From positions 1-64,000 of the IMG/VR virus record IMGVR_UViG_3300038443_001477: DNA of 64,000 bases, one strand, 5' to 3'. The translations under genes and the position numbers were made by a program. This stretch comes from a virus. Its lineage: Duplodnaviria; Caudoviricetes. This document shows positions 2,975 through 58,895 of this stretch, piece by piece; the first letter of the stretch is position 1; each line of letters begins with the position of its first letter. The notes under the pieces are model-generated. The model was not told the origin of the DNA. It did no database searches and worked only from the letters and a program-made list of their open reading frames with translations.

Positions 2975-3174
2975 GCCACGCCCTTCAATGCGTCTGCGGC
3001 TGCCCGGGGTGCCCCATGCCGGCGGCCCACGTCAGGTTGCCGACGGCCTACAACGACGAGGAGAGCAACTGGGCCTTCCTCTGTTCGTGGCACGAGGAAG
3101 AGGCGCGCGAATACTGGGCCGAGCGCTGGGCCGACTACTACGCGGACGTTGCTTGCTATTACCCGTATAGCTAA
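2971..3174 (+). CDS. small Cys/Trp-rich hypothetical protein
   Basis: ATGA overlap with sbcC; CxCxxC motif. Confidence 0.5.
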   Translation: MSHALQCVCGCPGCPMPAAHVRLPTAYNDEESNWAFLCSWHEEEAREYWAERWADYYADVACYYPYS

Positions 3175-3203
3175 GGCGACGAAAGACCTCTGGAGAACGA
3201 CCT

Positions 3204-3398
3204 ATGCGTAATTGGTGGAAAGCCCGGCGGCTGCGGCGGCTGCAAGAGCGACGCACTGTGCTCAAGAAGCGCAGCGAGCTCCTGCGGGCGATGATGAGCA
3301 CACAAGGCAGCTTCTCTGCATGGTACTTCGACCGCTACGTCACGGCGGAGGAGAATCTGGCGCTCTTGGAGCGGCGCATCGTGGAGATCACAGGATGA
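3204..3398 (+). CDS. small basic hypothetical protein
   Basis: GGAG RBS; ATGA overlap with next gene. Confidence 0.55.
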   Translation: MRNWWKARRLRRLQERRTVLKKRSELLRAMMSTQGSFSAWYFDRYVTAEENLALLERRIVEITG

Positions 3399-3736
3399 TC
3401 GCCCTTCAGCTCAATCCCCCGCTCCCCATGACCACGCCGAAGGGCGACGGCCTCGCCCACGTCATGCTGGATTACGGCCCCGAGCACAACCTCTACTGGG
3501 TGGTCTTCCAGCAGGACACCGGCGAGTGCTGGACCTGGGCCAATCCGCAGGTTCGCGCCCAGAAGAACATCACCGGGGGCCGCCTCAAGATCACGCCCAT
3601 CACAAAGGAAAGCCTGGTCCCCGCACGCCATGTTTGCGTTTTTTGCAATCAGATCGTGCGGGAGGGGGAGCGCTGCCTCTCGCCCACGGAGGCCGGCCTC
3701 TGTGCCCTGAGAAAGAGCCGCGAGGGCAAGCGGTGA
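3395..3736 (+). CDS. conserved-looking phage hypothetical protein
   Basis: LNPPLPMTTPKGDGLA...DYGPEH...WVVF...GECWTW pattern; C-terminal CxxC. Confidence 0.65.
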   Translation: MIALQLNPPLPMTTPKGDGLAHVMLDYGPEHNLYWVVFQQDTGECWTWANPQVRAQKNITGGRLKITPITKESLVPARHVCVFCNQIVREGERCLSPTEAGLCALRKSREGKR

Positions 3737-4266
3737 GGACCTACCTCTACCCCCTGCTCACCGACTACAAGGTCGGCGTCGTCATGCCGAAGGCTGGCAT
3801 CAACGACGCACAGCTCGGTGAGATGAGCCGCCGCCTGGACCTCATCGGCAAAGCCCTCTCCGAGGAGGGCCGCATCCATGTTTATGTGCCGGGCTTCAAC
3901 TTCGCTGACGCCGAGGCCTCGGTCGTGCGCAATGTGCGCAACATGCTGGAGCGCAAGGCGAGGGCCCACATCACCTACATCCCCTGTGGCGGAGACCATA
4001 AGGCCGGGGTCGCCAACCTGATTGTCTACGAGCTCGCCGAGGCCAAGCGCTGCGACGAGATCTGGTGCTTTCCGGCCGAGGGGCAACGCGGCTCCGCCGC
4101 CGCTCGGGTTGCCCAGGTGTGGCGGCTGGGGCAGGCACACGCCCGACACACCACCTTCAAACAGATACCCCCATGGGTGGAGGCCCCGCCACCGCCCGAA
4201 GCCCCTGGCAAAGCAACGAAAGGAAAGTCATGGAGAGACATGTGGAGCAAACGGAGCTTCCGTTGA
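3733..4266 (+). CDS. hypothetical protein, possible SLOG/YspA-like fold
   Basis: GTGA overlap; alternating beta/alpha pattern ending CDEIWCFP..G.RGS; fold call weak. Confidence 0.5.
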   Translation: MRTYLYPLLTDYKVGVVMPKAGINDAQLGEMSRRLDLIGKALSEEGRIHVYVPGFNFADAEASVVRNVRNMLERKARAHITYIPCGGDHKAGVANLIVYELAEAKRCDEIWCFPAEGQRGSAAARVAQVWRLGQAHARHTTFKQIPPWVEAPPPPEAPGKATKGKSWRDMWSKRSFR

Positions 4267-4946
4267 ACAAGCCCCGAATCCCCCTGGTTGACGAGGAGGC
4301 CCAGGAGCCGGCCCCGCTGGCGCGGGCCACCGCGGCTCGTCTGCTGGAGGAGGCCGAAGAGGAGGAGGAGCTGTTGCCCAGGCGGGCGCGCCTGGAAAAT
4401 GCGGCGACTGCCAGCCCCGCCGATGTCGTCAAGGCGATGGCCCGGGCCTCGGAGAAGCAGCTCGCGGAGATCACCGAGAAGGGCCTGCCTGCCACGCAGA
4501 AGGTGGTCGACGGGCAGAGCCGTGTCCTCACGCCGGAGGAGATCAACGCGACCTACAACGCGCTGAAGGGGGAGTTCGCCAAGCATGGCCTCCCGCCCTT
4601 CAGCGAGGACCCGGAGCTTTACACCAACTGGAGCACGCGTGAGCCGCCCAGCATTACCGGCTTCTACGACGTGACCGACAGCCGCACGGGCACGCTCAAC
4701 GAGCGCTGGTGGTTCGAGATGCATGCGGGCCCGATGCTCTGGCGACGCTGGATCAATGGCGTGGCACATGTCACGACTGCAACCCTCATGCACGACGAAT
4801 TCATCGACCGCGGCTACGCATGGCGGGGCCTGCGCAAGATGCCTCAGCAGCCCTACCCGGTGCCTCCATACGACCCGCTGCTCTTGCCGAAAGAGGCTCC
4901 GCTTGCGGGCAAGTACGTGCTGCGCAAGGTGGAGCCCCTCTCGTGA
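4230..4946 (+). CDS. hypothetical protein
   Basis: AGGA RBS before ATG 4230; acidic helical N-half, aromatic C-half. Confidence 0.6.
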   Translation: MERHVEQTELPLNKPRIPLVDEEAQEPAPLARATAARLLEEAEEEEELLPRRARLENAATASPADVVKAMARASEKQLAEITEKGLPATQKVVDGQSRVLTPEEINATYNALKGEFAKHGLPPFSEDPELYTNWSTREPPSITGFYDVTDSRTGTLNERWWFEMHAGPMLWRRWINGVAHVTTATLMHDEFIDRGYAWRGLRKMPQQPYPVPPYDPLLLPKEAPLAGKYVLRKVEPLS

Positions 4947-36250: not shown

Positions 36251-36253
36251 AAG

Positions 36254-36410: not shown

Positions 36411-36483
36411 TGGCCCCATTTTCGGGGAGTCGGCTGTAGATAGGCAAGTGCCTTACTGGGCCGTTTAGGGAGGCCCCTCTAGG

Positions 36484-37591: not shown

Positions 37592-37830
37592 TTCCGCGCC
37601 TCCCGGGCCCAGGCCCGATGGTTCCGGATGTAGCAGAGCGTGACCATGATGTTCATCGGCAGGAAGCCGACATTGCGGCTCCAGTCGTTGGCAATCCAAA
37701 GCAACCAGAAGATCTGGCCCCCAAGGCTGAAGGCCCAGGCCTTCGGCCACTTGCGGCCCTGGAGCTCGATAGCCACGATTGTGATCGCACTCATGAGCCA
37801 GGGCAGGTACGTCGCGATGATGTGGCGCAT
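37588..37830 (-). CDS. small 3-TM membrane protein (PnuC-like pattern)
   Basis: GAGGAGG RBS; W..S.ITI......G.KW..AW......Q..WL.W; an in-frame upstream ATG at 38202 also exists. Confidence 0.6.
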   Translation of the reverse strand: MRHIIATYLPWLMSAITIVAIELQGRKWPKAWAFSLGGQIFWLLWIANDWSRNVGFLPMNIMVTLCYIRNHRAWAREARK

Positions 37831-38496
37831 CGGCCCCTCCTCGGATTGGAGTTCAGCGCCCGCCTGCGTGCGTCTGCGAGCTTTAGCGCCTGTTCCCGCG
37901 CTGCTTCCTCGGAGCCCCTCGCTCCTATTGTGGGGTGATGGCGAGGCCGTGCACTCCTCGATTCCGCTGGCCCCGTGTGCAGCCCGGGTCCTCTCAACGG
38001 CACTCTCCAGAGGTCGTTCCGATCCCACTCTTGGCCTCGTCGCCCGCAGGCGGCTCGTCACCCCGCCTACTTGCTGGTCGCTGACGCCAGCCCCAGGGAA
38101 TCGCCGAAGTCCAGGCCTCGCCATCGGGGAAGAGAGCAGCTCTGGGGCTCTGGGACTGGCTCTATGTGTTCCCTGCCCGCGAGCGCTGCTCTCTTCCCCC
38201 ATGGCCCCTCCTTGCGGAGGGAAAGGGGCCGGCGTGTTCTGAGCCTCTGTCGCCGGCCCCGCCCCGTTTCTTTTTCGCGGAGGGCATCCTCCGCCACCTA
38301 GCTATACCCCCAGCCTAGAAAACGATCCCTCCCACGCCAAAGCCGACGGCTCTCATCGGCGCGGGAGGGGCTAGTCTGAAAGAGCCAAGGGACCACCGCG
38401 CTCGGCCCCAGGGGCTCGCGGATACCCGGAGACAAAGGCCCGCGAGCCGGTCTCCATTCGCCCTATTCCAGGCCGTTAGCAAGCCGGGGAATCCAA

Positions 38497-38521
38497 TGAA
38501 AAAGCCCGCTCTGGGCGGGCC
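38497..38521 (-). terminator. intrinsic terminator just downstream of putative late promoter
   Basis: GGCCCGC-CCAGA-GCGGGCT then TTTT. Confidence 0.7.
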
Positions 38522-38566
38522 TTCTTGAGCGGAGGTGCAGTTCTCACCTCTAGCTAATGCGACCGG

Positions 38567-38596
38567 ATAATAGGTGAAAAATACGGAGGTTTGCAA
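38567..38596 (-). promoter_or_regulatory. sigma70-type promoter (late, PR'-like)
   Basis: TTGCAA-18 nt-TATTAT directly after the Q-like gene. Confidence 0.55.
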
Positions 38597-38609: not shown

Positions 38610-39365
38610 TTAGAGGTGGTGGCCGGTGATTCCGGCAGCGTCGAAGATGGTGGAGACCTCCTCCCACGCCTGGAGTTCGCAGGCCTCCAGGTATTCCATG
38701 ATCCAGCCCCGGTGCTTGGCGGCGGTGGTCAGGTTCACCCCCGCCTCGGCCGCCATCTCGGTGAGCGTGCGACTGTCCTTGGTGAAGAATTGCTCCACGA
38801 TGCGGCGGCGCAGCAAGGGCTGGGAGCTGAGGCCCTTCTTCCCAGGCACCTTCAGCACATCGGCGCGGAGCTGGATGATCGCGCACATGTCCCCGAGGGC
38901 ATTCAGCCAGCGCTCCGTCGGCCGGCGCCCGGAGCAGCAAAGGGTGCGGCAGGAGCAGGGCTTGTAGGCGGTGGTACAGAGCCCCGCGAGCACGGCCTGG
39001 TGCTCGATGTCGAGGCGGCCAAAGTGGTAGAGGATGATGCCGGCCTGGTGGTGCTTCTCCAGGCCATCGCGCCATCGCAGCGCGTAGGGGCGTACAAGGC
39101 TCCCTCCCCTCTTCTCCTTAAGCCGGGCCTGCTCCATCTCCAGGAGCTGCTCCGGGGTCTCCGCGCCCGGGATCGCCATGCCCAGGATCTCCGCTTCGCT
39201 CTTGCGCTTCTTGCGGGGCTTCTTCATCTCCACGCGAATCGAGGCCATGGCCTTATTCATGAAGGCGGTGGGCGTGGTGACTTGATCGGCGTTGAGCGCA
39301 AAGGAAAGCGCCTTCCGGCAGTCGTCGAAAGGCGCTAGGTCTTCGGGGGCTGGGGCATTGCTCAT
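38610..39365 (-). CDS. late transcription regulator (antiterminator Q-like, Zn + HTH)
   Basis: AL.FALN, QAG.I, PCSCRTLCCSG, RRRIVEQFF...TLTEMAAEAGVNLTTAAKH HTH; sits at head of late operon. Confidence 0.65.
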   Translation of the reverse strand: MSNAPAPEDLAPFDDCRKALSFALNADQVTTPTAFMNKAMASIRVEMKKPRKKRKSEAEILGMAIPGAETPEQLLEMEQARLKEKRGGSLVRPYALRWRDGLEKHHQAGIILYHFGRLDIEHQAVLAGLCTTAYKPCSCRTLCCSGRRPTERWLNALGDMCAIIQLRADVLKVPGKKGLSSQPLLRRRIVEQFFTKDSRTLTEMAAEAGVNLTTAAKHRGWIMEYLEACELQAWEEVSTIFDAAGITGHHL

Positions 39366-39381
39366 GCCCCGAGCTATACGG

Positions 39382-40783: not shown

Positions 40784-40810
40784 AGAGCTATACCGAGGAG
40801 GAGGCCACTC

Positions 40811-47453: not shown

Positions 47454-47499
47454 CTGTTTCTCCTGGGTGCTCAGCGGAGGGATTCCGGTGGCATGTGGG

Positions 47500-47535
47500 G
47501 ATTCTAGCATAGTCTATACATAGACTTTCAACGTC
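47500..47535 (-). promoter_or_regulatory. early promoter with perfect operator-like palindrome
   Basis: AGTCTAT-GT-ATAGACT (47511-47526) flanked by TTGAAA and TG-n-TAGAAT; homologous to 45762-45795. Confidence 0.65.
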
Positions 47536-48543: not shown

Positions 48544-48942
48544 TTAGATGCCCTTGGATCGCGTGTAGGCGCGCTCGTACTGCGCCGGCTGGGCGGCCCT
48601 CGGCTTGTTACTGGGGGCCTTCTTGGCGGCCTTGGTAACGATCGCCTTGGGCTTACTGGGAGCCGCGTCAGCGGCCTTCGGCTTCGGCCCCGGCCTCTTC
48701 TTGAGCCCGGCGAGGCCGCCCTGTTCCAAATAGGTTACGGGGTCCATGCGGAGCTCGATGCCGTTATCACGCGCCCACTTCCGGAAGGCGGCCGGCGGGC
48801 AGCTCACGCCGCCCCTCTCGTCCACCGCGCACGGCAAGGGAGCCGTCTTCCTGGCGGGGCCCTTGCGCCAGTTGTAGACGGTCATCGGGGTGACATCGGC
48901 GAGATAGCAGAGGTCGGGAATCTTGAGCTTCTTGGCGGTCAT
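48544..48942 (-). CDS. HTH DNA-binding protein (Cro/AlpA-like)
   Basis: IPDLCYLADVTPMTVYNWRKG HTH; AAGGAG RBS. Confidence 0.7.
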   Translation of the reverse strand: MTAKKLKIPDLCYLADVTPMTVYNWRKGPARKTAPLPCAVDERGGVSCPPAAFRKWARDNGIELRMDPVTYLEQGGLAGLKKRPGPKPKAADAAPSKPKAIVTKAAKKAPSNKPRAAQPAQYERAYTRSKGI

Positions 48943-48975
48943 GTAATGCGCTCCTTGGGAGGGTTGGTGGTAGGG

Positions 48976-48991
48976 AGATTATACCAAGACT
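48976..48991 (-). promoter_or_regulatory. extended -10 promoter with operator-like site
   Basis: TGG-TATAAT inside AGTCTTGGTATAATCT. Confidence 0.6.
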
Positions 48992-49026
48992 TTCGGGGCC
49001 TCCCCTCGGCATTTAGGAGGGTCCGG

Positions 49027-49034
49027 GTATAGCT
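49027..49034 (+). promoter_or_regulatory. GTATAGCT putative phage promoter before queE
   Basis: One of 8 co-oriented copies (3165+, 38300-, 39372-, 40786-, 49027+, 51580+, 57691+, 58866+). Confidence 0.6.
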
Positions 49035-49068
49035 GGCGGGCATTCCCTATCTTTTCAGGAGAGCAGCC

Positions 49069-49806
49069 ATGTTCGGGCAAAACCCTATCCGCAGCGCCGA
49101 CGCCGACCCGAATCGGATCAGCGTGCAATCCGCCTTCTACACCATCCAGGGCGAGGGCCCCCAGGCGGGCCGACCTGCGTTATTCGTGCGGCTCGCCGGC
49201 TGCAACCTCGCTTGCTGGTTCTGTGACACCGAGTTCGAGAAGCCAACCTTCAACGGCGCCCCGCAGGATCTGGCCGCCTGCCTGGAACGCGACTTCAGCC
49301 CCCAGCAGCGGGAGTTGGTGGTGCTCACCGGGGGCGAACCCCTGCGGCAACAAGGTGCGCTCCTGCTGATCGCTCATCTCCTGGCCGCCGGCACCAAGCT
49401 CGTCCAGATCGAGACCGCGGGGACGCTCTGGCTCCAGGGCCTGGAGCGCTATGTCGAGGAGGGCCTCGTCCAGATCGTGTGCAGCCCGAAGACCCCGCGC
49501 ATCAACATCAATATCGCCGTCTACTGCCAGCACTGGAAGTACATCGTGCGCAGCGGCGAGGCCAGCCACTTCGATGGGCTCCCCCGGCGCGGCACCCAAC
49601 TCGCCACCAAGGACAAGCTCTCCGAACTCTTCCGGCCGCGCCCGGTCGACGGCAAGTGGTCGAGCCCGTACACAATCTGGCTCTCCCCCTGCGACGAGCA
49701 GGACCCGGCGAAGAACGCCGCCAATGCCCACGAGGCCGCCCTCCTGTGCATGAAGTACGGCTACCGCCTGAGCATCCAAATGCACAAATTGGTCGGGGTG
49801 GAGTGA
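49069..49806 (+). CDS. queE: 7-carboxy-7-deazaguanine synthase (radical SAM)
   Basis: FYTIQGEG...GRPA.FVRLAGCNLACWFCDT, VVLTGGEPL.Q, IETAGT, CSPK, LS.Q.HK. Confidence 0.92.
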   Translation: MFGQNPIRSADADPNRISVQSAFYTIQGEGPQAGRPALFVRLAGCNLACWFCDTEFEKPTFNGAPQDLAACLERDFSPQQRELVVLTGGEPLRQQGALLLIAHLLAAGTKLVQIETAGTLWLQGLERYVEEGLVQIVCSPKTPRININIAVYCQHWKYIVRSGEASHFDGLPRRGTQLATKDKLSELFRPRPVDGKWSSPYTIWLSPCDEQDPAKNAANAHEAALLCMKYGYRLSIQMHKLVGVE

Positions 49807-50270: not shown

Positions 50271-50737
50271 CTGGGGAGCAGCCCTGGCGGCGCGTGCCTA
50301 AGTTCGATCCGCGAGGTGCGTCCCTCGCGGATCGGCACTACTCACGGCGCACAGTGGGCAGTCCGCAGTTCATGCCGCCCGGGGAGACAGTCGTCCTCCT
50401 GCCTCAGAAGGGAGATGCGGTCTTCGGCTGGTGGCGCCCGCATCCCGCGAGTGGCCTTAAGACGCTCAACGGCCTGGATGGCTGGACCTGCACCATCTTC
50501 CGCAACGAGAGTGAGTACCGCTCAAGTGACTTGATCCGAGCGGCTGAAACCTTCCTTCTGGGCCTGGGCGTCACTATTGGTCCCGATGGCTTTATCACCT
50601 ATGTTTGGGATAAGCGTGTCCGCAGCGTCAATCCAGGGTACTGCTTCAAGCTCGCGGGCTGGCGGAAGACTGGACGCAGCGCCGACGGCAAGAAGACTCT
50701 TCTTCAGAAGCTCCCGCGCCGGGAGTTAATCGAATGA
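50255..50737 (+). CDS. Mom-like GNAT-fold protein (putative DNA base acyltransferase)
   Basis: LADRHYSR...GSPQF.PPG, C..FRNES, FITY....V.S.NPGYCF..AGW...G.S; GGAGGAG RBS. Confidence 0.55.
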   Translation: MRTLLAGEQPWRRVPKFDPRGASLADRHYSRRTVGSPQFMPPGETVVLLPQKGDAVFGWWRPHPASGLKTLNGLDGWTCTIFRNESEYRSSDLIRAAETFLLGLGVTIGPDGFITYVWDKRVRSVNPGYCFKLAGWRKTGRSADGKKTLLQKLPRRELIE

Positions 50738-51576
50738 CCAGAACGCTTCTAGCCGTCGATCTCTCCAATCACGTGTACAAGGCTGCGGCGGCGCATCCGA
50801 TGCTGACCAGCCGCCGCATCTTCACCGGCGGCCTCTACGGCTTCTTCACGACCTTCGCCAAGATCGTCCGGGAGACCCGGGCGACACATGTCGCCTTCTG
50901 CCAGGACGTGAAGCCCTACAAGCGCAGCGAAACTTACCCCGAGTACAAGCAGCTCTCCCGGAAGAAGAACCGCGACGAGGACCTCCTCCGCCTCTACAAG
51001 CAGAGCATGGAGCTCATTCTGGAGGTGATGGCTGCCTGCGGCCTTCAGCCCTGGGGGATTCCGGGCTTTGAGGCCGACGACCTGATTGGGCACTGCGTGA
51101 TGAAGTACCGGCATCGCTTCGACCGCATCTACGCCGCCACCAACGACAGCGACCCCTTCCAGCTCCTTTGGTGCGACAACTTCTACCTCTATCGGAAGGA
51201 GCTGAAGGACGTCGTCACGGGTGACAAGCTCGTCGACCCTTTCGGCCGGCCCATCACGCCGGACCAGTACATGCTGGCGACGGCCCTCATGGGCACCCAC
51301 AACGACATCGATGGCATCCCTCGCGTAGGAGCGGGCACGGCCTTCAAGGCGCTCCACGACCCCGCTCTAATGCGCAAGCTGAGGGACGGGCACTCCGACC
51401 TCATAGAGCGCAATCTGCGGCTTATAAAGCTGCCGCACGAAGCCTTCCCACGAGAGGCCTCGCTCCCCACGCATCAATCCTTCAACCCACGCACCCTCTA
51501 CCGCGCCCTGGGCAAGTACGACATCGAGGTGACCGGCGCCGTGGAGCGCGCCTTTCAGGAGCTTTTCGGCCGCTAG
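50734..51576 (+). CDS. 5'-3' exonuclease / flap endonuclease (PolA N-terminal-like)
   Basis: LL.VD..N..Y, R.E.YPEYK, G.EADD.IG, NDSD..QL, G...D.I.GIP.VG..TA. Confidence 0.88.
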   Translation: MTRTLLAVDLSNHVYKAAAAHPMLTSRRIFTGGLYGFFTTFAKIVRETRATHVAFCQDVKPYKRSETYPEYKQLSRKKNRDEDLLRLYKQSMELILEVMAACGLQPWGIPGFEADDLIGHCVMKYRHRFDRIYAATNDSDPFQLLWCDNFYLYRKELKDVVTGDKLVDPFGRPITPDQYMLATALMGTHNDIDGIPRVGAGTAFKALHDPALMRKLRDGHSDLIERNLRLIKLPHEAFPREASLPTHQSFNPRTLYRALGKYDIEVTGAVERAFQELFGR

Positions 51577-51668
51577 GGCGTATAGCTCCCCTGCGGCTAG
51601 GAGGCATCCGAAAAGCGCTTGACCCACGCCTGCCGCTCCTTTTCAACTGGGTCGGCAAGGAGGTCACC

Positions 51669-51953
51669 TTGAACAAGCAACTCGAAAGCCGCGGTTCTCG
51701 CGGCCTGATCCCCCTCGATAGCCAGAGCTCGGCTCGGGTCCATAACCAGGCGCTGGAGCGCGCCGCCGCATTCCTGGAGCGCACGGCGGCCGGCTTCGAC
51801 GAGGCCGCCCGGGACTGGGTCGAGAGGCAGCTATCCAGCCGCAACCAGCAGAGCCGCGACTTCGCCATCCAACAGACCATGCTGAATCGCAGCAAGGCCG
51901 AACTCCTGCGCGGCCAAGCCGCCCACATCCGCGAGATGAAGGTCTCGGAGTAA
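51669..51953 (+). CDS. helical hypothetical protein
   Basis: AAGGAGG RBS + TTG; TAAATG junction to helicase. Confidence 0.6.
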   Translation: MNKQLESRGSRGLIPLDSQSSARVHNQALERAAAFLERTAAGFDEAARDWVERQLSSRNQQSRDFAIQQTMLNRSKAELLRGQAAHIREMKVSE

Positions 51954-53492
51954 ATGGACGACGATCAGCGACTGAGCGGGAGCCTTCAGGAAAACGTCCT
52001 GACGGTGCTCTGCTTCAACGACGACTACTGCAAGATCATCCGGGCCGCTATCACCCCGCACCTCTTCGAGTCGAAGGTGTACAAGGAGATCGCGGGCTAC
52101 GCCATCGACTTCATCGACCAGTTTGGGGAGGCAATCAAGGAGCACCTCCCCGACCACCTGGAGGACATTCTCCAGGGGGAGGACCAGCGCAAGGCAAAGC
52201 ACTACAAGCAGGTCCTCGACAACCTTTTCATGAGCCGTGACTCCGTCAACTCGGAGTTTGTGAAGACGGAGCTCCAGAAGTTTGTCCGCGTGCAGAAGTT
52301 CAAGGCGGGCCTTGTCCGGGTCGTGGAGATCCTCGACGGCAACGGCAGCATTGACGAAGCCGAGAGCATCATGGAAAAGGCGATGGCTGCGCAGATCGTC
52401 TCCTTTGAGCCGGGTGCGAGCCTCGACAACCCCGAGGATGTCGCCGGGGTGCTCGACGAGCCCGAGGAGGAGGGCTTCACCCTGGGGATTGAGGAATTCG
52501 ACCGGCTCGGCATCTACCCGCGTCGAAAGGAGCTCTTCGGCTTTCTGGCAGCTCGGGGCCGGGGGAAGTCGTGGTTCGCCACGCACTGCGCCAAGCGTGC
52601 CCTCCTCCAGCGCTGGACCCCGGTCATGGTCACGCTGGAGATGTCCCAGAAGCGCTACTCCGCGCGCATGCTTCAGACCTTTTTCTCCATCAGTCGGCGC
52701 GACGCGCTGGTGCACGTGACGCGTCTGAATAAAGACGGCGACGGCAAGCTGGAAGGCGTCCTCCGCGAGGAGGTCGAGCGCCAGACGATGCGGGACCCCG
52801 ACATCCGGGAGACCCTCAAGAGGAAAGCGAAGCGCGCCTTCAAGAATCGAAAGCCGATCAGGATCAAGGCATTCCCCAGCGGGAGCCTTGACATCTCCGG
52901 CCTGCGTGCCTACCTGGAGGGCCTGCGCCGCCACGAGAAGATCACCCCCGACCTTCTCGTCGTCGACTATCCGCGCCTGATGAAGCTCAACCCCGCCAAC
53001 CTGCGCTTGGAGCTGGGGGCGTTGAACGTAGCGCTGCGTGGCCTCGCCGACGAGATGAACATGGCGGTCGTGGTCCTGGCGCAGGGCAATCGAGAGAGTG
53101 AGAGCGCGTTCCTGGTCACCGGCGACATGGTGGAGGAGGACATCTCCCTCAAGGCCACCGTGGATGTGCTCCTCACCTACTCGCAGACCAAGCTGGAGAA
53201 GGCCCTGGGCCTCGCCCGTCTCTACGCCGACAAGGTGCGCAACGACGAGAGCGGCGCCATCGTGCTCATCTCCCAGGCCTACGCCATAGGGCAGTTCTGC
53301 CTGGAGAGCATGCGGCTTGTCGGCGATTACTGGGAGGACCTGAAGGAGAAGTTCGCGGACAAGGAGGACCGGCGCTCGCGGCGGCGCCGCAGCGAGGATG
53401 AAGACGCCGAGCCGCCCTCGCCACGCAGGCGGCGGGACGATGACGAAGAGCGGCCGCGCCGCAGAAGGGATGGCTCGGATGACCGACGCTGA
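51954..53492 (+). CDS. DnaB-like replicative helicase
   Basis: Walker A variant AARGRGKS, V.V.LEMS, LLVVDYP, L.Q.NRE, DKVRN; R/D-rich tail. Confidence 0.85.
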   Translation: MDDDQRLSGSLQENVLTVLCFNDDYCKIIRAAITPHLFESKVYKEIAGYAIDFIDQFGEAIKEHLPDHLEDILQGEDQRKAKHYKQVLDNLFMSRDSVNSEFVKTELQKFVRVQKFKAGLVRVVEILDGNGSIDEAESIMEKAMAAQIVSFEPGASLDNPEDVAGVLDEPEEEGFTLGIEEFDRLGIYPRRKELFGFLAARGRGKSWFATHCAKRALLQRWTPVMVTLEMSQKRYSARMLQTFFSISRRDALVHVTRLNKDGDGKLEGVLREEVERQTMRDPDIRETLKRKAKRAFKNRKPIRIKAFPSGSLDISGLRAYLEGLRRHEKITPDLLVVDYPRLMKLNPANLRLELGALNVALRGLADEMNMAVVVLAQGNRESESAFLVTGDMVEEDISLKATVDVLLTYSQTKLEKALGLARLYADKVRNDESGAIVLISQAYAIGQFCLESMRLVGDYWEDLKEKFADKEDRRSRRRRSEDEDAEPPSPRRRRDDDEERPRRRRDGSDDRR

Positions 53493-53769
53493 ACTGGAGC
53501 GCCTCCGCGCTCAGAAGAACCAAGCGGCGTCCCTGATTGGGCAGGAGATCATCAACTTCCTGTGCAATTCCGGGGTCATGTATGACGACGGCATCAACGC
53601 GTGCGGCTGGGTGATCGGCCAGCTCGCCAACCAGTGCGGAGATCCCGTGCTCCGCCAGCAGGTGCCGGCACTGCTCCGCGAGGTCATCGCGCGACTCGAG
53701 GGCCGGCCCCCGGAGAACCCCTTCGCGCCGCCGCCGGGGACCATGGAGCCACCCCAGACGATCCAATGA
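53479..53769 (+). CDS. hypothetical protein
   Basis: Overlaps at both ends. Confidence 0.5.
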   Translation: MTDAELERLRAQKNQAASLIGQEIINFLCNSGVMYDDGINACGWVIGQLANQCGDPVLRQQVPALLREVIARLEGRPPENPFAPPPGTMEPPQTIQ

Positions 53770-55346
53770 TTATCGACCGCAGGGCCGTCAGGGAGTTCCT
53801 CGCGCGGGAACTCGACTCGTATCTCTGGATGAAGGGCCTCAGCCGGGAGAAGATCCTCCGCGAGCTGAAGGCTCTGCGCGTGCCGCCGGTGTTTCACACC
53901 GACCCCTGGCTGCACCAGCTTGTTTGCTTCTGGATTGGGCTCTGTAAGCCCCGCTTCCTCTTCCTCCTGGACATGGGCCTGGGGAAGTCGAAGATCCTCT
54001 CCGACTTGATCCGGCACATCCAGCGCGAGAAGAAGCTGGAGCGGGCCCTCATCACCGTACCGCGGAAGCTCAACGTCGACTCCTGGGTCGACGACCTCGC
54101 TGTGCACCAGCCCGATCTGGAGCCCTGGCGCATCGACTGCTCCGACATCGAGGAGAAGCGGGAGCGCCTCCTCAATCCGCGCGGCGACGTCACCATCATC
54201 GACAACCAGGGCCTCCAGTGGGCGCTCTGTGATAAGGTGAAGATCGGCGGCAAAAAGAAGCGCAACGAGCTCCAGGTCAACGAGAAGGTGCTGAAGCGGG
54301 TGCTCAAGGAATACAACTTCCTCGGCATCGACGAGATTCACAAGTTCGCCAACAGGGAGAGCCTCTGGTACTCTTTCATGGACGACATGGCCCGCCGCAT
54401 GGACTATTGCTACGGCACGACGGGCACCCTCTTTGGCAAGAATCCCGAGGATGCGTGGCCGCAATTCCATCTCATCGACCGCGGTGAGGCCCTGGGGGAG
54501 ACCCTCGGCATTTTCCGCGCGGCTTTCTTCCATGCGAAGACCAAGCCCTTCAAGGGGGTCGTCTACGAGTTTGACAAGCGCATGGATGCGAAGCTGCACG
54601 AGGTCCTCCAGCACTCCAGCATCCGCTACGACGAGAACGAGGTCCCCGAGACCGACCTACCGCCTCGCGTCATGCGGGTGCATAAGTTGGAGATGTGCGA
54701 GGAGCAGCGTGAGCACTATTTGCACGCCCTGGAGGGCTTGGTAAACGCCGGTGGCAAGCTCCGCGATCTGGAGGCGCAGTGGCTGCGGATGCGGCAGATC
54801 ACCAGTGGCTACCTCGTGTGGAAGGATGAACACGGCGAGCACATAAAGCACTTCAAGGAGAACCCGAAGCTCGACGACCTGGAGGCCACCATTGACGGCA
54901 TGCGCGAGGGCCGGAAGATGATCGTCGCCTATGTCTACACCGAGAGCGGCCGCATCATCTGTGAGCGACTGAAGAAGCTCGGGATCGGCTTCGAGTGGCT
55001 CTACGGGGGCACCAAGGACCCCGCCGCTGCCCGGCGCCGCTTCATGCAGGACCCGAAGTGCAAGGTCTTCGTGATGAACGACGAAGCCGGGGGCACGGGC
55101 AACGACGGCCTGCAAAAGGTAGCCAATTCGCTTTACTTCTACGAGAGCCCCAGCGACCCCAAGGCCCGCCAACAAGTTCTTAAGCGGGCGCATCGCCCAG
55201 GCCAGACGCGCCGCACCTTTATCTATGACGCGGTGGTAAAGGGCTCGGTCGATGTCGGAATTCTGGATGGAATTGCGGAAGGCATTGACATGTACGACCG
55301 GGTGGTAAACGGTCGGGTGAGGTATAAGAATCTATTCTTAGGCTAG
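53766..55346 (+). CDS. SNF2-family helicase
   Basis: LDMGLGKS, DEIH, TGT, LRMRQITSG, NPKL..L, AGG.G..LQ, R.HRPGQ. Confidence 0.9.
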   Translation: MIIDRRAVREFLARELDSYLWMKGLSREKILRELKALRVPPVFHTDPWLHQLVCFWIGLCKPRFLFLLDMGLGKSKILSDLIRHIQREKKLERALITVPRKLNVDSWVDDLAVHQPDLEPWRIDCSDIEEKRERLLNPRGDVTIIDNQGLQWALCDKVKIGGKKKRNELQVNEKVLKRVLKEYNFLGIDEIHKFANRESLWYSFMDDMARRMDYCYGTTGTLFGKNPEDAWPQFHLIDRGEALGETLGIFRAAFFHAKTKPFKGVVYEFDKRMDAKLHEVLQHSSIRYDENEVPETDLPPRVMRVHKLEMCEEQREHYLHALEGLVNAGGKLRDLEAQWLRMRQITSGYLVWKDEHGEHIKHFKENPKLDDLEATIDGMREGRKMIVAYVYTESGRIICERLKKLGIGFEWLYGGTKDPAAARRRFMQDPKCKVFVMNDEAGGTGNDGLQKVANSLYFYESPSDPKARQQVLKRAHRPGQTRRTFIYDAVVKGSVDVGILDGIAEGIDMYDRVVNGRVRYKNLFLG

Positions 55347-55424
55347 CTGCGCCGGCATCGCCTACAATGCTCGTGCCCGTTAGAGGAGCGCAAAGCCCCG
55401 GCGGGTGTTCAGAGGATGGGATAC

Positions 55425-55688
55425 ATGAAAAACGACCACGGGGCGGCCTTTTTGCCGTCCGGATCGAGGAGTCGGGTCGAGACGAGCCCCACGGGCCGTC
55501 TCATTTCCGCCGAGCTCACGCTCGGCCTTCTATTGAAACAGCAGCAGCCGTGCCGCCCCTTGCAGGGCATGGTGCGGCTCCTGCAACACGGCGAGCGCGT
55601 GATCTCCCTGGAGATGGATTACTCCCAGGTCGAGGCGCGCATCTTCGCCGCATACCCCCAAGCTGCACAGCTCCTGAAGCGCCGATAA
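55425..55688 (+). CDS. small protein resembling a family A DNA polymerase palm fragment
   Basis: TGRL followed 38 aa later by DYSQVEARIFA; GAGGA RBS. Confidence 0.55.
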   Translation: MKNDHGAAFLPSGSRSRVETSPTGRLISAELTLGLLLKQQQPCRPLQGMVRLLQHGERVISLEMDYSQVEARIFAAYPQAAQLLKRR

Positions 55689-55704
55689 AGCGCTCCCCGC
55701 TGCC

Positions 55705-56733
55705 GTGCGCCCTATCGACTGGGCGCAGGTGCTCAGGGAGCACCGCGTCCACTTTGTAGAGAGCGGCCCCAACGTCAAGCGGGGCGAGTTGGCGATCAAG
55801 TGCCCCTTCTGCGGGAGCGCTGATCCCTCTCATCACATGGGCCTCAACCTGGAGACCGGTTGGTGGTCCTGCTGGCGCAACCGCGCCCAGCACTCGGGCA
55901 AGAGCCCGGTGCGGCTGCTCATGAAGCTCCTGCGCGTGCCCTATGGCCGCGCCAGGGAGATAGCGGGCCTTGGGGAGGACTATGTCGACCCCGAGGGCTT
56001 CGACGCCCTTGCTGCGCGTCTCCTGGGGCGCTCTGGCACGGAGGAGGCCCGGCCGGAACAGGTGCAGCGACGACGCCTGCACCTTGACGCCTCCTTCAAG
56101 GAGATAGGGCGGCGCTCCGCGCTGACTCGTCCCCACTGGGACTACCTCTATGAGCGTGGCTTCGATGGGCGCTCGGCCCTGGGCGAGGACGTCGATGTGC
56201 TCTGCGACGACTACCAGCTCCGCGCCGGCCTTCGCGGCCGCTTCCAGGGGCGCGTCGTGCTCCCCTACATCATGGATGGAGAGGTAGTCACATGGAGCGC
56301 CCGCGCGATCACAGCGAGCCGCTGGCGCTATCTGGACCTCGACATCGAAGACTCCATCCTCCCGCCCAAGGAGACCCTCTACAACCACGACGCCATCTAC
56401 TCGGGCGGCAAGGCCCTGGTCGTCGTGGAGGGCCCCTTTGACGCGCTGAAGCTCGACTTCTATGGGAAGCCCTGGGGCGTGCGCGCGGTCGCGCTCTCCA
56501 CCAACTCCATCACCGACGCCCAGGCCTATCTGCTCCAGGCCGCCGAGGACCACTTCGACCAGACGCTGGTGATGCTGGACAACGCCTCGGCTCTCGGCAT
56601 CGTCGACTCGATGCGGATGAAGCAGGAGCTCTCTTTCCTTCGGAATCTCTCCATCGTTGGGGTCCCCCATGGCGCGAAAGACGCCGGGGAGCTGAGGCCC
56701 CGACAGGTCATTCAGTGGGCGCAAGCCCTTTAG
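55705..56733 (+). CDS. DNA primase (Zn finger + TOPRIM)
   Basis: CPFCG...H.G.N....W.CW; RVVLPY; VVEGPFDAL; LD.D-like TOPRIM end. Confidence 0.85.
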   Translation: MRPIDWAQVLREHRVHFVESGPNVKRGELAIKCPFCGSADPSHHMGLNLETGWWSCWRNRAQHSGKSPVRLLMKLLRVPYGRAREIAGLGEDYVDPEGFDALAARLLGRSGTEEARPEQVQRRRLHLDASFKEIGRRSALTRPHWDYLYERGFDGRSALGEDVDVLCDDYQLRAGLRGRFQGRVVLPYIMDGEVVTWSARAITASRWRYLDLDIEDSILPPKETLYNHDAIYSGGKALVVVEGPFDALKLDFYGKPWGVRAVALSTNSITDAQAYLLQAAEDHFDQTLVMLDNASALGIVDSMRMKQELSFLRNLSIVGVPHGAKDAGELRPRQVIQWAQAL

Positions 56734-56747
56734 CCACAGAGGTACAC

Positions 56748-57131
56748 ATGGGTCTTTTCACTCCATATCTCAACACGCACTTCAGGAGCGGGGGTTGCCG
56801 GCTCATCGCCCGCGCCTATGACAAGTGCCGTGAGCGCCGCGTGCAGCTCTACGCCATCCCGGGCCACTACGACTGCGTCGGCGTCAGCGATGGCACCGAC
56901 GCCTGGGTTGCGCCCGCGAGCGCCGGCCTCTTCTTCGGAACCTCCAGCGGCGACTGCGCCGACATCATGCGCCGCCTCCAGGCGGGCGAGCCCTTGCCGC
57001 CCATTCCTGACTGGCCCGCTGATGTCCGTGAGGAGGAGCCCGCGCCCAGGCCTCGCGCCCAGCGCCGAGTCGCCCTGGAAGAAGCCGAAGAGATCACCCC
57101 GAGGAGGAAGAGCCGTGTCGCACTCGTTTGA
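56748..57131 (+). CDS. hypothetical protein
   Basis: GAGG RBS at ATG 56748. Confidence 0.6.
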   Translation: MGLFTPYLNTHFRSGGCRLIARAYDKCRERRVQLYAIPGHYDCVGVSDGTDAWVAPASAGLFFGTSSGDCADIMRRLQAGEPLPPIPDWPADVREEEPAPRPRAQRRVALEEAEEITPRRKSRVALV

Positions 57132-57684
57132 ACCCAGTTTCGAGGGCCCGATTGAGGGCTATGTGGTAAATGGCATGCGCGCCAATTATTTCCGCGTGCA
57201 AGCGACCATGACCCGCGAAGACTACATGCAGGAGGCCTACGAGGTCTTCCTCACGCTGCGCCGCCACTACGCCGGCAAGGTGGAGGAGCCTAAGCACTTC
57301 ATGGCGCTGTTCAAGCGGGCGTGGTCGAATCGGCTCGCTGACCTCTCGACCGAGGACACCAACCAGCGCGAACTCTTCCGCCCCGACCACGGCATCCAGC
57401 GCAGTGCCGAGGGTGAGGAGGAGCGCCAGTACGAGGCGCTGGGCGAGACAGATAACGAGGGCCATCTCCGAATCCTGATCCGTCAGGCTCCGCGCGAGGT
57501 GGGCATGGTGCTTAACCTATTCCTGAGTGCGCCCCAGGAACTCGTGGAGATGGCGCTCCGCTCCTGGAGCGGCAACAAAGACAGCCGCCGCAAAGACGGG
57601 GGCAGCGCCCACATCAACCGCCTCCTCGGCCTTGATCCGAGCCGTGACGTCATGCAGGAGGTTCACGATTACCTATCCGCGTGA
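57115..57684 (+). CDS. sigma-factor-like protein (region 2; no clear region 4)
   Basis: REDYMQEAYEVFL.....Y.......F..LF..AWSNRL.D resembles sigma70/ECF region 2; GAGGAGG RBS + GTG. Confidence 0.55.
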   Translation: MSHSFEPSFEGPIEGYVVNGMRANYFRVQATMTREDYMQEAYEVFLTLRRHYAGKVEEPKHFMALFKRAWSNRLADLSTEDTNQRELFRPDHGIQRSAEGEEERQYEALGETDNEGHLRILIRQAPREVGMVLNLFLSAPQELVEMALRSWSGNKDSRRKDGGSAHINRLLGLDPSRDVMQEVHDYLSA

Positions 57685-57754
57685 TAGCCGGTATAGCTGT
57701 CACAGCCCTTTGCGGCTGCATTCCCACCAACCAAACCCGGAGAACTCTGGACAA

Positions 57755-58819
57755 ATGAGCAAGATCGAGAAGGAGCTGGTCAAGGCGACCGGCGTGGAAG
57801 CGAAGAAGGGCGAAGCGCGGCCCGAGTTCCTGGCGCGCATGGCGAAGGCCGTGGCGGGCCTGGACGAGAAGGACTGGGAAGACCTCAGCGCCGAGGCCCA
57901 AGACTGGTACAACGCCAACGCCGACGCCCGCCAGAAGGCGAAGAAGGCGGGGGAGTCGATGCCGCCGTACACCGACTTCGCCGACGCCAAGCCGGACGTC
58001 GAGGAGGAGGAAGACGACCAGCCCTCGCGCCGCCGCCGCGGTTCCGACGAGGACAAGTCGGGGAAGGCCAAGGAGAACGCTCCGCCCAAGGGCGAGGCCA
58101 CCGCGGTCGAGAAGCTGGAGGAAGGCCAGCGCGTGAAGATCGTGACCAAGCGCGGCAAGGAGGTCGCGGGCGAGGTGGTCGAGAACTCCAAGCGGAAAGA
58201 GTACGTGGTGGTCAAGACGGCCGACGGCAAGGAGGAAGAGCTCGACTACGACCGCGTCGACTCCGTGGAGGTCTTCCACGGCACGGCGGGCACCGGCGGC
58301 GATGCCGGCGACGAGGACAAGGACGTCGGCCCCGGCATCGGCGACGAGGTGGAGCTGACCAACAAGCGCGGCAAGACCTTCCGGGGCAAGATCACCGAAC
58401 TCTCCGAGGAGGAGATCGTGATCGAGACCGACGACGGCCCCGAGGACTTCGCCCGCGACCGCATCACCGACATCAAGGTGACCAAGAAGGCCAAGGCCGG
58501 CGGCCCCAAGAAGGAAGACGCCAAGGGCGACGACGAGAAGGCCACCAAGGGCAAGGGCACCAAGAAGGACGACGACGGCGACGACAAGAAGACCCGCAGC
58601 CGCAGCAGCGACGAGGTCCCCATCGGCACCAAGATCAAGATCGCCATCGCCGAGAACCTCGACGCCGACGTCGGCGAGATCGCGGCCATCCTGAAGAAGG
58701 CCGGCGTCGAGGTGAAGGAGAACACCCTGGACCTCAACTTCAAGGAATGCCACAAGCTCCTGAAGGCACTGCACGAGCGCGACCTCCTCGCGGTCAAGAA
58801 GTTCACCCCCAAGGTCTAA
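57755..58819 (+). CDS. highly charged protein with two tandem Sm/SH3-like beta repeats
   Basis: G.RVKIVTKRGKEV.GEV.. and GDEVELTNKRGKTFRGKI.. repeats; strong codon bias suggests high expression. Confidence 0.7.
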   Translation: MSKIEKELVKATGVEAKKGEARPEFLARMAKAVAGLDEKDWEDLSAEAQDWYNANADARQKAKKAGESMPPYTDFADAKPDVEEEEDDQPSRRRRGSDEDKSGKAKENAPPKGEATAVEKLEEGQRVKIVTKRGKEVAGEVVENSKRKEYVVVKTADGKEEELDYDRVDSVEVFHGTAGTGGDAGDEDKDVGPGIGDEVELTNKRGKTFRGKITELSEEEIVIETDDGPEDFARDRITDIKVTKKAKAGGPKKEDAKGDDEKATKGKGTKKDDDGDDKKTRSRSSDEVPIGTKIKIAIAENLDADVGEIAAILKKAGVEVKENTLDLNFKECHKLLKALHERDLLAVKKFTPKV

Positions 58820-58855
58820 GCCGGCGGCCGCCTCGCGGCTGAGGGCATGACCCCG

Positions 58856-58895
58856 AGAGGCCCCGGTATAGCTACCGCGGGCCTCTTCTCTTTTT
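58856..58895 (+). terminator. intrinsic terminator whose loop carries GTATAGCT
   Basis: GAGGCCC-CGGTA-TAGC-TACCG-C-GGGCCTC then TTCTCTTTTT. Confidence 0.7.

What the first reader, a model, noticed from the sequence alone, without database searches (positions are those of the whole stretch)
3165..58873. GTATAGCT regulon: a -10-only promoter motif unites the scattered deazaguanine genes and a phage sigma-like factor
Exact GTATAGCT seen by eye at 3165(+), 38300(-), 39372(-), 40786(-), 49027(+), 51580(+), 57691(+), 58866(+); all lie at gene boundaries, all point into the downstream gene, no shared -35. At about two-thirds GC roughly 0.6 copies are expected on both strands of 64 kb. Copies head queD, queE and queC-folE-dpdA although these loci are 9-18 kb apart and on both strands. 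The 57115-57684 protein resembles sigma region 2 without an obvious region 4 (T4 gp55-like logic). Inference: a middle-gene programme that switches on base modification, replication genes and the late regulator together.
Basis: partly seen in the sequence, partly recalled or inferred. Interest (0 to 1): 0.8.

Follow-up and report, generated by a model that had tools for sequence, protein, structure and literature searches.

The report
Phage-specific promoter GTATAGCT and its sigma
An uncultured 72.6-kb phage marks the start of most of its operons with the exact 8-base signal GTATAGCT, a promoter of the minus-10-only kind that its relatives also use (GTATAnnT). The signal is probably read by the phage's own very divergent sigma factor, a known type of arrangement in a family nobody has described.

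Summary
GTATAGCT occurs 8 times at the stated places (0.16 expected). All copies are intergenic and point the same way as the gene downstream. A ninth copy, GTATAGAT, lies beyond the window.

Comparison with relatives makes it a promoter. Edwardsiella phage ZHS, the Vibrio MAR10 group and about 30 IMG/VR contigs carry cc-GTATA-D-H-T at the same gene junctions, with no -35 element. Some copies sit 4-6 nt before an ATG with no ribosome-binding site, which implies leaderless mRNAs. Others sit just before a conserved 5' hairpin. Before queC, the motif lies at the apex of a terminator hairpin in 11 genomes.

The 57115-57684 protein is probably a sigma factor, but it has two domains: sigma-2-like plus sigma-4-like. 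It therefore resembles phiEco32 gp36, which reads the single element tAATGTAtA, more than T4 gp55. Its sequence is not detectably related to gp36.

That this protein reads the motif is an inference, about 0.6 likely. The main rival is that host sigma-70 reads it.

The signal is not specific to deazaguanine genes. It also heads replication genes, a possible Q-like regulator and perhaps the late operon, and MAR10, which lacks que genes in the 49 kb examined, has it too. Timing is untested.

The scan has reported the same kind of system, a phage sigma with matching promoters, on other DNA. I class this as a new member of a known kind.

The parts
3165..3172 (+). GTATAGCT copy 1. It overlaps the last codons of the 2971-3174 ORF and lies 31 nt before the ATG at 3204, downstream of the Rad50/SbcC-like gene at 1064-2974.
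38300..38307 (-). GTATAGCT copy 2, at the entrance to the lysis and structural arm. Hairpin 38294-38277 and terminator-like hairpin 38260-38225 plus TTTC follow it. A strong ribosome-binding site and an ATG at 38202 come next. No further copy occurs in the 32 kb of structural genes downstream.
39372..39379 (-). GTATAGCT copy 3. It fills the 16-nt gap between two genes, 6 nt before the ATG at 39365, and there is no Shine-Dalgarno sequence. A leaderless mRNA is predicted.
   Evidence: the N-terminus aligns with ZHS_98; the same leaderless layout in distant relatives
38610..39365 (-). A 251-aa protein with an invariant Cys cluster (PCSCRxxCCSG) and a C-terminal helix-turn-helix. It may be a Q-type antiterminator. 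This is a lead only.
   Evidence: (ESM Atlas score 0.95, 210-217 shared features with clusters carrying PF06323). Against: searches find no sequence-level match.
40786..40793 (-). GTATAGCT copy 4. It heads queD (ATG at about 40740). Hairpin 40783-40765 and a T-run follow it directly.
48977..48984 (-). GTATAATC, a variant with a perfect TATAAT, placed back to back with copy 5. It lies 41 nt before the ATG at 48942 of the leftward small-gene operon. Relatives have GTATAATT at this position.
49027..49034 (+). GTATAGCT copy 5, 34 nt before queE (49069-49806). This junction carries the motif in at least 10 related records.
51580..51587 (+). GTATAGCT copy 6, just after the flap endonuclease gene (50734-51576). 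It heads the operon 51669-57684: DnaB-like, SNF2, primase-like and the sigma-like gene.
57115..57684 (+). Sigma-like protein of 189 aa: an N-terminal sigma-2-like domain (residues 1-93), a linker, and a C-terminal sigma-4-like domain (residues 113-189). No Pfam match; it belongs to phrog_35491, of unknown function.
57691..57698 (+). GTATAGCT copy 7, 7 nt after the sigma gene's stop codon. The conserved hairpin CAGCC-N6-GGCTG (57703-57718) follows it. It heads the conserved gene 57755-58819.
58855..58900 (+). Terminator hairpin (58855-58887) plus T-run. GTATAGCT copy 8 (58866-58873) lies across the loop and the top of the stem. It heads queC (58911-59618), folE (59615-60190) and the DpdA-like gene (ends at 61137).
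38499..38596 (-). A sigma-70-type promoter match, TTGCAA-N18-TATTAT (38596-38567), followed by the hairpin GCCCGC/GCGGGC and TTTTT (38520-38499). It lies directly after the possible Q-like gene.
   Evidence: As a pattern match it is not above chance: 2 were found in 19 kb and 1.6 expected.

Best explanation
GTATAGCT is this phage's version of a promoter specific to its lineage. The promoter has one element of the -10 type, with consensus cc-GTATA-[A/G/T]-[A/C/T]-T and no -35 element. Transcription should start about 4-7 nt downstream of the 8-mer. Depending on the site, the mRNA is then leaderless or begins with a stabilising 5' hairpin.

Before queC the promoter sits at the top of an intrinsic terminator hairpin. 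Transcripts arriving from upstream would end there, while new transcripts would start inside the 3' arm of the stem and so escape termination.

The element is most likely read by host core RNA polymerase carrying the phage's own two-domain, ECF-like sigma factor (57115-57684), in the way phiEco32 gp36 reads tAATGTAtA.

The sigma gene lies inside a motif-headed operon. Its product would therefore reinforce its own synthesis once a first dose has been made. In relatives that first dose could come from the GTATAATT (perfect TATAAT) promoters of the central control region, which host sigma-70 could plausibly use.

Shown: the motif, its placement, its conservation and the hairpin layouts. Inferred: the start sites, which factor reads the motif, and the timing.
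For: Cis element:
- 8 exact copies against 0.16 expected, all intergenic and co-oriented with the downstream gene.
- The same junctions carry GTATAnnT in the complete relative G002 (8 sites), Edwardsiella phage ZHS (11 of its 15 GTATA) and Vibrio phage MAR10.
- In 15 related loci (251 kb) there are 73 GTATAnnT on the gene strand and 14 on the other strand.
- 45 of 68 gene-strand sites head a gene, against 17.7% of random positions.
- There is no -35 information in 82 sites.
- Immediately after the sigma gene, 18 of the 19 closest relatives with readable downstream sequence (sigma 38-55% identical; ZHS and two contigs with identical sequence here included) carry GTATAnnT, mostly followed 4-5 nt later by a hairpin such as AGCC..GGCT. 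MAR10 has the off-consensus GTATAGAC.
- Leaderless layouts: GTATAGCT-cggggc-ATG here, and GTATACCT-tccc-ATG and similar in the distant loci L052 and L043, which have 7 and 9 sites against about 0.9 and 0.8 expected.
- The motif lies in the apex of a terminator hairpin (-19 to -32 kcal/mol) with a T-run before queC in 11 genomes, with stems of differing sequence.

Trans factor:
- Sigma70_r2 is the only Pfam family that recurs among family members: 8 of 47, best E-value 0.0019.
- 24 of 30 named ESM Atlas neighbours carry Sigma70_r2.
- Sigma factors dominate the structural matches to the whole model and its N-terminal domain, with Z 5.3-7.0.
- All 17 top matches to the C-terminal domain are sigma-4 domains, with Z 4.2-5.0 and rmsd mostly 2.5-3.6 A over 54-60 residues.
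- Some GenBank records name the MAR10-group homologue a sigma factor.

Precedent: phiEco32 gp36 has sigma-2-like and sigma-4-like domains, reads one element containing GTA at -11 to -9, starts transcription 6-8 bp downstream, and is the product of a middle gene, one of the two classes its own holoenzyme transcribes (PMC8948821, PMC12276001).
Against: - No experiment links the protein to the motif. All relatives were found through the sigma gene, so co-occurrence is partly built in.
- Profile comparisons with E. coli RpoE and with phiEco32 gp36 are not significant.
- The structural Z-scores are in a range that is common for helical proteins.
- In this phage every rightward promoter upstream of the sigma gene is GTATAGCT, so the source of the first sigma is unexplained.
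- Many relatives use GTATAATT, which contains a perfect host -10 hexamer. In ZHS the queE promoter scores 10 of 12 as a sigma-70 promoter.
- A sigma-4-like domain without a -35 element needs explaining.
- At 40786 a full terminator follows the motif directly. It would abort transcripts unless they start inside its stem.
Confidence: 0.6

Rival explanations
1. The motif is a promoter, but the host primary sigma (sigma-70 type) reads it as a -10-only element (G-TATAnn-T), perhaps helped by a phage-made modifier. The sigma-like protein would do something else, for example read a different signal such as CTAACCTAA.
For: The core TATA, and the frequent TATAAT, TATATT and TATAGT versions in relatives, look like a bacterial -10 hexamer. 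The ZHS queE promoter is CTGATA-17-TATAAT, a 10 of 12 match. At least one promoter must work before any phage protein exists. If the 38610 protein is a Q-type antiterminator, known Q proteins act on sigma-70 holoenzyme, as far as I recall.
Against: In this phage all 8 copies are TATAGC. They lack the critical T at -7, have no TG extension and have no -35 element. The invariant G before and T after the hexamer are not sigma-70 features. MAR10, which infects Vibrio, uses TATAGG, TATAGA and TATAGT. Exact 8-of-8 identity is typical of phage-private promoters.
Confidence: 0.22
2. The motif is not a promoter core. It would be the binding site of a phage regulator, or an RNA-level signal for processing or antitermination that works together with the neighbouring hairpins.
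For: Hairpins follow or enclose many copies. At 40786 and 58866 a terminator is directly associated with the motif. The phage has several DNA-binding proteins and a possible Q-like factor.
Against: The motif is asymmetric and strictly oriented. The hairpins differ in sequence and in their position relative to the motif: it is in the loop at queC, 2-5 nt upstream of the hairpin elsewhere, and there is no hairpin at 3165. Leaderless genes start 4-6 nt after it, which an RNA-processing or operator site does not explain. If it were not the promoter, no other promoter candidate would be left for these operons.
Confidence: 0.1
3. The copies are scars or ends of a repeated or mobile element, such as homing-endonuclease or recombination sites, or they are targets of the deazaguanine modification enzyme.
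For: Exact repeats at gene junctions can mark the boundaries of shuffled modules, as in the PeSL cassettes of T4-type phages (PMC2839356).
Against: Only 8 bp are shared and the flanks are unrelated. The junctions are orthologous across relatives whose sigma protein is only 30-50% identical. MAR10 has the motif although no que or dpdA gene is annotated in its 49 kb examined. As far as I recall, DpdA targets are short, frequent contexts, not 8-mers confined to non-coding DNA.
Confidence: 0.03

Closest known systems
Coliphage phiEco32 sigma gp36 and its middle and late promoters (tAATGTAtA)
   Same: Both are phage-encoded and very divergent sigmas built from a sigma-2-like N-terminal domain, a long linker and a sigma-4-like C-terminal domain. 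Both go with a single, highly conserved promoter element that contains GTA(T)A near -10 and has no -35 consensus, with start sites a few bp downstream. In both, the sigma gene belongs to a class it transcribes itself (PMC8948821, PMC12276001).
   Different: There is no detectable sequence relationship (hhalign probability 1.4%). The consensus differs: GTATAnnT against AATGTA. I did not look for a gp79-like partner. The phage type differs: a 72-kb myovirus with deazaguanine genes against a C3 podovirus. Here the promoter is also fused to terminators and drives leaderless genes.
T4 gp55 and the late promoter TATAAATA
   Same: Both promoters are an 8-bp, -10-only element with a TATA core. Both phages encode their own sliding clamp and clamp loader.
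   Different: As far as I recall, gp55 is a sigma-2-only protein that needs gp33 and the gp45 clamp. This protein has a sigma-4-like domain. Its conserved C-terminal DYF lies inside the last helix of that domain, not on a free clamp-binding tail. The motif here heads replication and modification genes, not only late genes.
Bacterial ECF (group 4) sigma factors, for example B. subtilis SigW with a -10 element CGTA(TA) (from memory, not checked here)
   Same: Both have a two-domain sigma-2 plus sigma-4 architecture of about 190 aa. The best structural matches are SigH, SigW, SigK, SigL, RpoE and BldN. The cGTA start of the element recalls ECF -10 motifs.
   Different: ECF promoters depend on a strong -35 element (AAC motif), and none is present here. 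The protein falls below all Pfam and NCBIfam thresholds. No anti-sigma gene is evident.
PeSL (promoter-early stem-loop) cassettes of T4-type phages
   Same: Both combine a terminator hairpin and a strong promoter in one compact unit at gene junctions (PMC2839356).
   Different: PeSLs use sigma-70-like promoters placed next to the stem-loop and occur in dozens of copies between small genes. Here the promoter lies in the apex of the hairpin at one conserved junction (queC), and the promoter is not of the sigma-70 type.

Membership tests
Sigma-70 family (ECF-like, two-domain) | A region-2 domain recognisable by sequence | tested here: inconclusive
   P0001 itself has no Pfam hit. Sigma70_r2 is the only family that recurs among homologues (8 of 47, best E-value 0.0019, below the cut-off). 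hhalign against RpoE aligns the 2.1/2.2 segment, but with probability 2-12%. 24 of 30 named ESM Atlas neighbours carry Sigma70_r2.
Sigma-70 family (ECF-like, two-domain) | Sigma-2 fold of the N-terminal domain | tested here: inconclusive
   The AF2 model has pLDDT 85.6. Many sigma-2 domains are among the top VIA matches, including RpoE, SigW, sigma-70, SigA domain 2 and SigR, with Z 5.3-7.0 and rmsd about 2.5-4 A over about 70-80 residues. Unrelated helical proteins score similarly.
Sigma-70 family (ECF-like, two-domain) | Sigma-4 (helix-turn-helix) fold of the C-terminal domain | tested here: met
   The C-terminal domain model has pLDDT 83. All 17 top matches among 48,161 chains are sigma-4 domains, with Z 4.2-5.0. 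The Z-scores are modest, but the list is uniform.
Sigma-70 family (ECF-like, two-domain) | Binds core RNA polymerase and directs initiation | not testable with these tools
   This needs a pull-down and in vitro transcription.
Sigma-70 family (ECF-like, two-domain) | Cognate promoters with both -35 and -10 elements | tested here: not met
   No information upstream of the 8-mer in 82 sites.
phiEco32 gp36-type phage sigma | Sequence homology to gp36 | tested here: not met
   hhalign of the family profile against gp36 gives probability 1.4%. tblastn finds no Kuravirus hit.
phiEco32 gp36-type phage sigma | A single-element promoter near -10 with start sites a few bp downstream | tested here: inconclusive
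   The single element is shown. The start sites are only inferred, from leaderless genes and 5' hairpins.
T4 gp55-type late sigma | A sigma-2-only protein without a sigma-4 domain that depends on the clamp | tested here: not met
   A sigma-4-like C-terminal domain is present. Clamp dependence cannot be tested here.
Intrinsic (Rho-independent) terminator | A GC-rich hairpin followed directly by a T-run | tested here: met
   Hairpin 58855-58887 with T-run, and its counterparts in 10 relatives at -19 to -32 kcal/mol. Hairpin 40783-40765 with TTTCTTTT.
Q-type antiterminator (PF06323 and relatives), for the 38610-39365 protein | Sequence or profile match to a Q family | tested here: not met
   No Pfam hit at E-value up to 10. 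PF06323 finds nothing in a six-frame search. hhalign against lambda Q gives probability 0.08%. There is no PDB sequence match. Only the ESM Atlas supports the idea, by features (0.95, 210-217 shared) and by structure (TM 0.6-0.7).

The most novel reading that the evidence does not exclude
A large, undescribed family of phage sigma factors (1,574 clusters at 50% identity) reads a private one-element promoter, GTATAnnT. The promoter is built into the apex of a terminator hairpin, so that one element of about 45 nt both ends upstream transcription and restarts it under phage control. Together with a host-readable TATAAT version at the central control region and a possible Q-like antiterminator made from a leaderless mRNA, this would give a three-step cascade in a myovirus with modified DNA: host sigma, then phage sigma with positive feedback, then antitermination into a 32-kb late operon.
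Probability: 0.3. Interest if true: 0.65.

Novelty: new member of a known kind. Interest (0 to 1): 0.55.

Why it matters
The result gives a concrete, testable promoter consensus and a candidate factor for a widespread phage group. That group includes cultured Vibrio (Mardecavirus) and Edwardsiella phages studied for aquaculture therapy. In the five papers I checked on them I found nothing on their transcription.

It suggests a function for a large family of 'hypothetical' proteins that has no Pfam model and sits in a PHROG of unknown function. It shows how the scattered 7-deazaguanine genes can be switched on together with replication. It also documents a compact layout with a promoter inside a terminator, which could serve as an insulating part in synthetic biology.

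Tried and rejected
- GTATA depletion. Counts looked 3-4 times below the mononucleotide expectation. With dinucleotide or 3rd-order expectations the effect vanishes: 13 observed against 10-12 expected. What holds is that almost all GTATA lie in non-coding DNA.
- Covariation count on the queC hairpin alignment. It was uninformative, because G/C runs misalign and the counts do not exceed shuffles. I relied on per-sequence folds instead.
- Sequence and profile searches of the sigma-like protein against the PDB gave nothing. Foldseek gave no hit with E-value at or below 0.001.
- hhalign against RpoE and against gp36 was not significant.
- Search for a phage-encoded T7-like RNA polymerase (PF00940). 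There was no hit, but the control rang nowhere, so this alone is weak. The large ORFs are otherwise accounted for as structural or replication proteins.
- Rfam and tRNA scans of the window found nothing.
- Reading the motif on the opposite strand as an alphaproteobacterial -10 element (GCTANAWC, from memory). Rejected, because all copies would then point away from the genes.
- A clamp-binding tail on the sigma. The conserved DYF lies inside the last helix of the sigma-4-like fold.
- Megablast against cultured phages gave no near relative.
I used the search for related loci with the family alignment instead.

Full report
WHAT THE DNA IS. The window is the first 64 kb of a 72,593-bp IMG/VR virus record that CheckV rates 100% complete. 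GC content is 65%. Two arms of genes diverge from one control region at 48942-49069.

The rightward arm carries queE, an unknown gene, a flap endonuclease, DnaB-like, SNF2 and primase-like genes, the sigma-like gene, an unknown conserved gene, queC, folE, a DpdA-like gene, a beta clamp and more.

The leftward arm carries small unknown genes, a ParB-like gene, queD, a MazG-like gene and a Cys-rich helix-turn-helix protein. After these come the large terminase, portal, protease, major head protein, tail sheath and tape measure. The phage is therefore a myovirus.

Its nearest cultured relatives are Edwardsiella phage vB_EpM_ZHS, which has the same gene order and a sigma-like protein 49% identical, and the Vibrio Mardecavirus group (MAR10, SSP002), at about 31%.

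THE OBSERVATION. There is no further copy in the last 8.6 kb. Every copy lies between genes and points into the next gene. Roughly 92% of the genome is coding.

Among the 14 one-mismatch variants, only GTATAGAT at 66950+ is intergenic and has the same GC-rich left flank. The other 13 are in coding DNA. A variant, GTATAATC, stands back to back with the queE copy and heads the leftward arm. Eleven of the 13 GTATA pentamers in the genome are intergenic, one lies in the last 25 nt of the SNF2 gene, and one is deep in coding DNA.

IT IS A PROMOTER OF THE -10-ONLY KIND. The decisive evidence comes from relatives.

- The complete relative G002 has 8 GTATAG[A/C]T copies, all before genes.
- In ZHS, 11 of its 15 GTATA fit GTATAnnT at junctions.
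- In 15 loci around the sigma-like gene (251 kb), GTATAnnT occurs 73 times on the gene strand and 14 times on the other strand.
- Of 68 gene-strand sites, 45 head a gene, against 17.7% of random positions.
- Over 82 sites the consensus is cc-GTATA-[not C]-[not G]-T, and nothing is conserved where a -35 element would lie.

The same junctions recur across relatives:
- before queE;
- inside the end of a coding region just upstream of the helicase block, where the motif is carried by the codons TAT AGA or TAT AAA, which look unusual for a GC-rich genome (codon usage was not measured);
- directly after the sigma-like gene;
- before queC.

Three layouts point to a start site 4-7 nt downstream of the 8-mer.

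1. Leaderless genes. Here GTATAGCT-cggggc-ATG fills a 16-nt gap with no ribosome-binding site. The ATG is the only possible start, judged against the ZHS orthologue. The distant loci L052 and L043 have GTATACCT-tccc-ATG and similar several times, with 7 and 9 sites against about 0.9 and 0.8 expected.
2. A 5' hairpin. After the sigma gene, a hairpin such as AGCC-N4-6-GGCT begins 4-5 nt after the motif in most relatives.
3. A promoter inside a terminator. Before queC, in 11 genomes, the motif forms the loop and the top of the stem of a strong hairpin followed by a T-run. The stem sequences differ between genomes. A transcript from upstream would terminate there. One started at the motif would begin in the 3' arm and read on.

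WHO READS IT. The 189-aa protein at 57115-57684 has no Pfam or NCBIfam match and belongs to a PHROG of unknown function. The family is large: 1,574 clusters at 50% identity.

Several weak lines of evidence agree that it is a sigma factor.
- Sigma70_r2 is the only Pfam family that recurs among its homologues (8 of 47).
- 24 of 30 named language-model neighbours carry Sigma70_r2.
- In the AF2 model (pLDDT 85.6), sigma factors dominate the Foldseek and VIA lists for the whole protein and the N-terminal domain.
- For the separately modelled C-terminal domain, the 17 best matches out of 48,161 chains are all sigma-4 domains.

It is thus a two-domain, ECF-like sigma, not a gp55-like half sigma. Direct profile comparisons with RpoE and with phiEco32 gp36 are not significant. 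I put sigma membership at about 0.85 and the link to the motif at about 0.6.

The best precedent is phiEco32. Its gp36 has sigma-2-like and sigma-4-like domains, reads the single element tAATGTAtA with G at -11, starts transcription 6-8 bp downstream, and is the product of a middle gene, one of the two classes its own holoenzyme transcribes.

- All copies in this phage are TATAGC. They have no T at -7, no TG extension and no -35 element.
- G1 and T8 are invariant, which is not a sigma-70 feature.
- A distant clade prefers C at position 6, which the main clade avoids.

Two points argue for host sigma-70.
- Many relatives use GTATAATT, and in ZHS the queE promoter is a 10 of 12 sigma-70 match.
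- Something must be transcribed before any phage sigma exists. In this phage no host-type promoter upstream of the sigma gene was found. This remains unexplained.

SCOPE OF THE 'REGULON'. The motif does head queD, queE and queC-folE-dpdA, so these scattered genes share a signal. But the signal also heads the replication operon, unknown genes and the entrance to the late arm. MAR10 has it as well, although no que or dpdA gene is annotated in the 49 kb I examined. It is the lineage's general phage-specific promoter, not a deazaguanine switch.

No copy lies within the 32 kb of structural genes. Those genes are probably reached from the copy at 38300 or from a sigma-70-like promoter at 38596-38567.

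A lead: the leaderless 251-aa protein just upstream has an invariant Cys cluster and a helix-turn-helix, and language-model and structure neighbours place it near Q-type antiterminators. A promoter-like match and terminators follow its gene, as in lambda. Every sequence-level test for Q failed, so this remains a hypothesis.

KNOWN OR NEW. The search listed 25 of 59 papers naming these phages. The two I opened mention neither a promoter nor a sigma factor. Some GenBank records already call the MAR10-group protein a putative sigma factor. Phage sigmas with one-element promoters, and joints that combine a terminator with a promoter (PeSLs), are known kinds. This scan has reported a phage sigma with matching promoters on other DNA.

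I therefore class the finding as a new member of a known kind. It has two uncommon touches: the promoter in the apex of a terminator, and the leaderless units.

Noticed in passing
window 35823, 36149, 48428 and 48539 (+ strand text); 34745, 36196 and 36599 (- strand text); variants at 32836, 36480, 42750, 48731, 35495, 57519 and 45399: A second strongly over-represented word, TTAGGTTAG / CTAACCTAA. TTAGGTTA occurs 7 times against 0.03 expected. Copies cluster in the two ORF-free gaps at 35398-35828 and 36133-36484 and near the control region, in both orientations. Several overlap the stop codons of leftward genes, as [C/G]TAACCTA. MAR10 has an analogous word, TTACTAAA / TTAGTAAA, 49 and 45 times in 48.7 kb. 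They may be binding sites of a phage DNA-binding protein (a ParB-like gene lies at 43115-44152), or a second promoter class.
   Followed up: partly
window 38610-39365 (-): A 251-aa protein with the invariant motif PCSCRxxCCSG and a C-terminal helix-turn-helix. ESM Atlas neighbours are Q-type antiterminators (PF06323 in 16-64% of the members of the neighbouring clusters). Its gene is followed by a sigma-70-like promoter match and two terminator-like hairpins before the lysis and structural arm. No sequence-level test confirmed Q.
   Followed up: partly
window 37830-38300 (-): About 470 nt after the 38300 promoter copy have weak coding signal (third-position GC 0.6-0.7, against 0.85-0.93 in neighbouring genes), although a strong ribosome-binding site and an ATG at 38202 are present. 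This could be a long leader or a non-coding RNA. Rfam finds nothing.
   Followed up: partly
window 47485-47530 (-): The palindrome GTCTAT-GT-ATAGAC lies between TTGAAA and TAGAAT in an intergenic gap of the leftward small-gene region. It looks like an operator on a host-type promoter with a long, 19-nt spacer.
   Followed up: no
window 55322-55329 (+): GTATAAGA lies at the end of the SNF2 gene, just before the 55425 gene, primase and the sigma gene. It might be a weak extra promoter that could supply the first sigma transcripts.
   Followed up: no
L010:4075, L021:4313, L022:4150, L025:4876, L028:2474, L033:4201; ZHS 54274(-): In relatives one promoter copy is embedded in a coding sequence (protein motif L-Y-R/K-x-L-G-R-Y-D-I-D). 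The tyrosine and arginine or lysine use the codons TAT AGA or TAT AAA, which look unusual for a GC-rich genome. This suggests selection on the DNA signal inside a gene. Codon usage was not measured.
   Followed up: partly
window 57755-58819 (+): A 354-aa gene of unknown function (weak PUA and RimP-like matches). In 22 of the 26 relatives whose downstream sequence begins with an intergenic spacer or the next gene's start, the gene right after the sigma gene opens with a similar N-terminus. It usually has its own promoter copy. It may be a partner of the sigma.
   Followed up: partly
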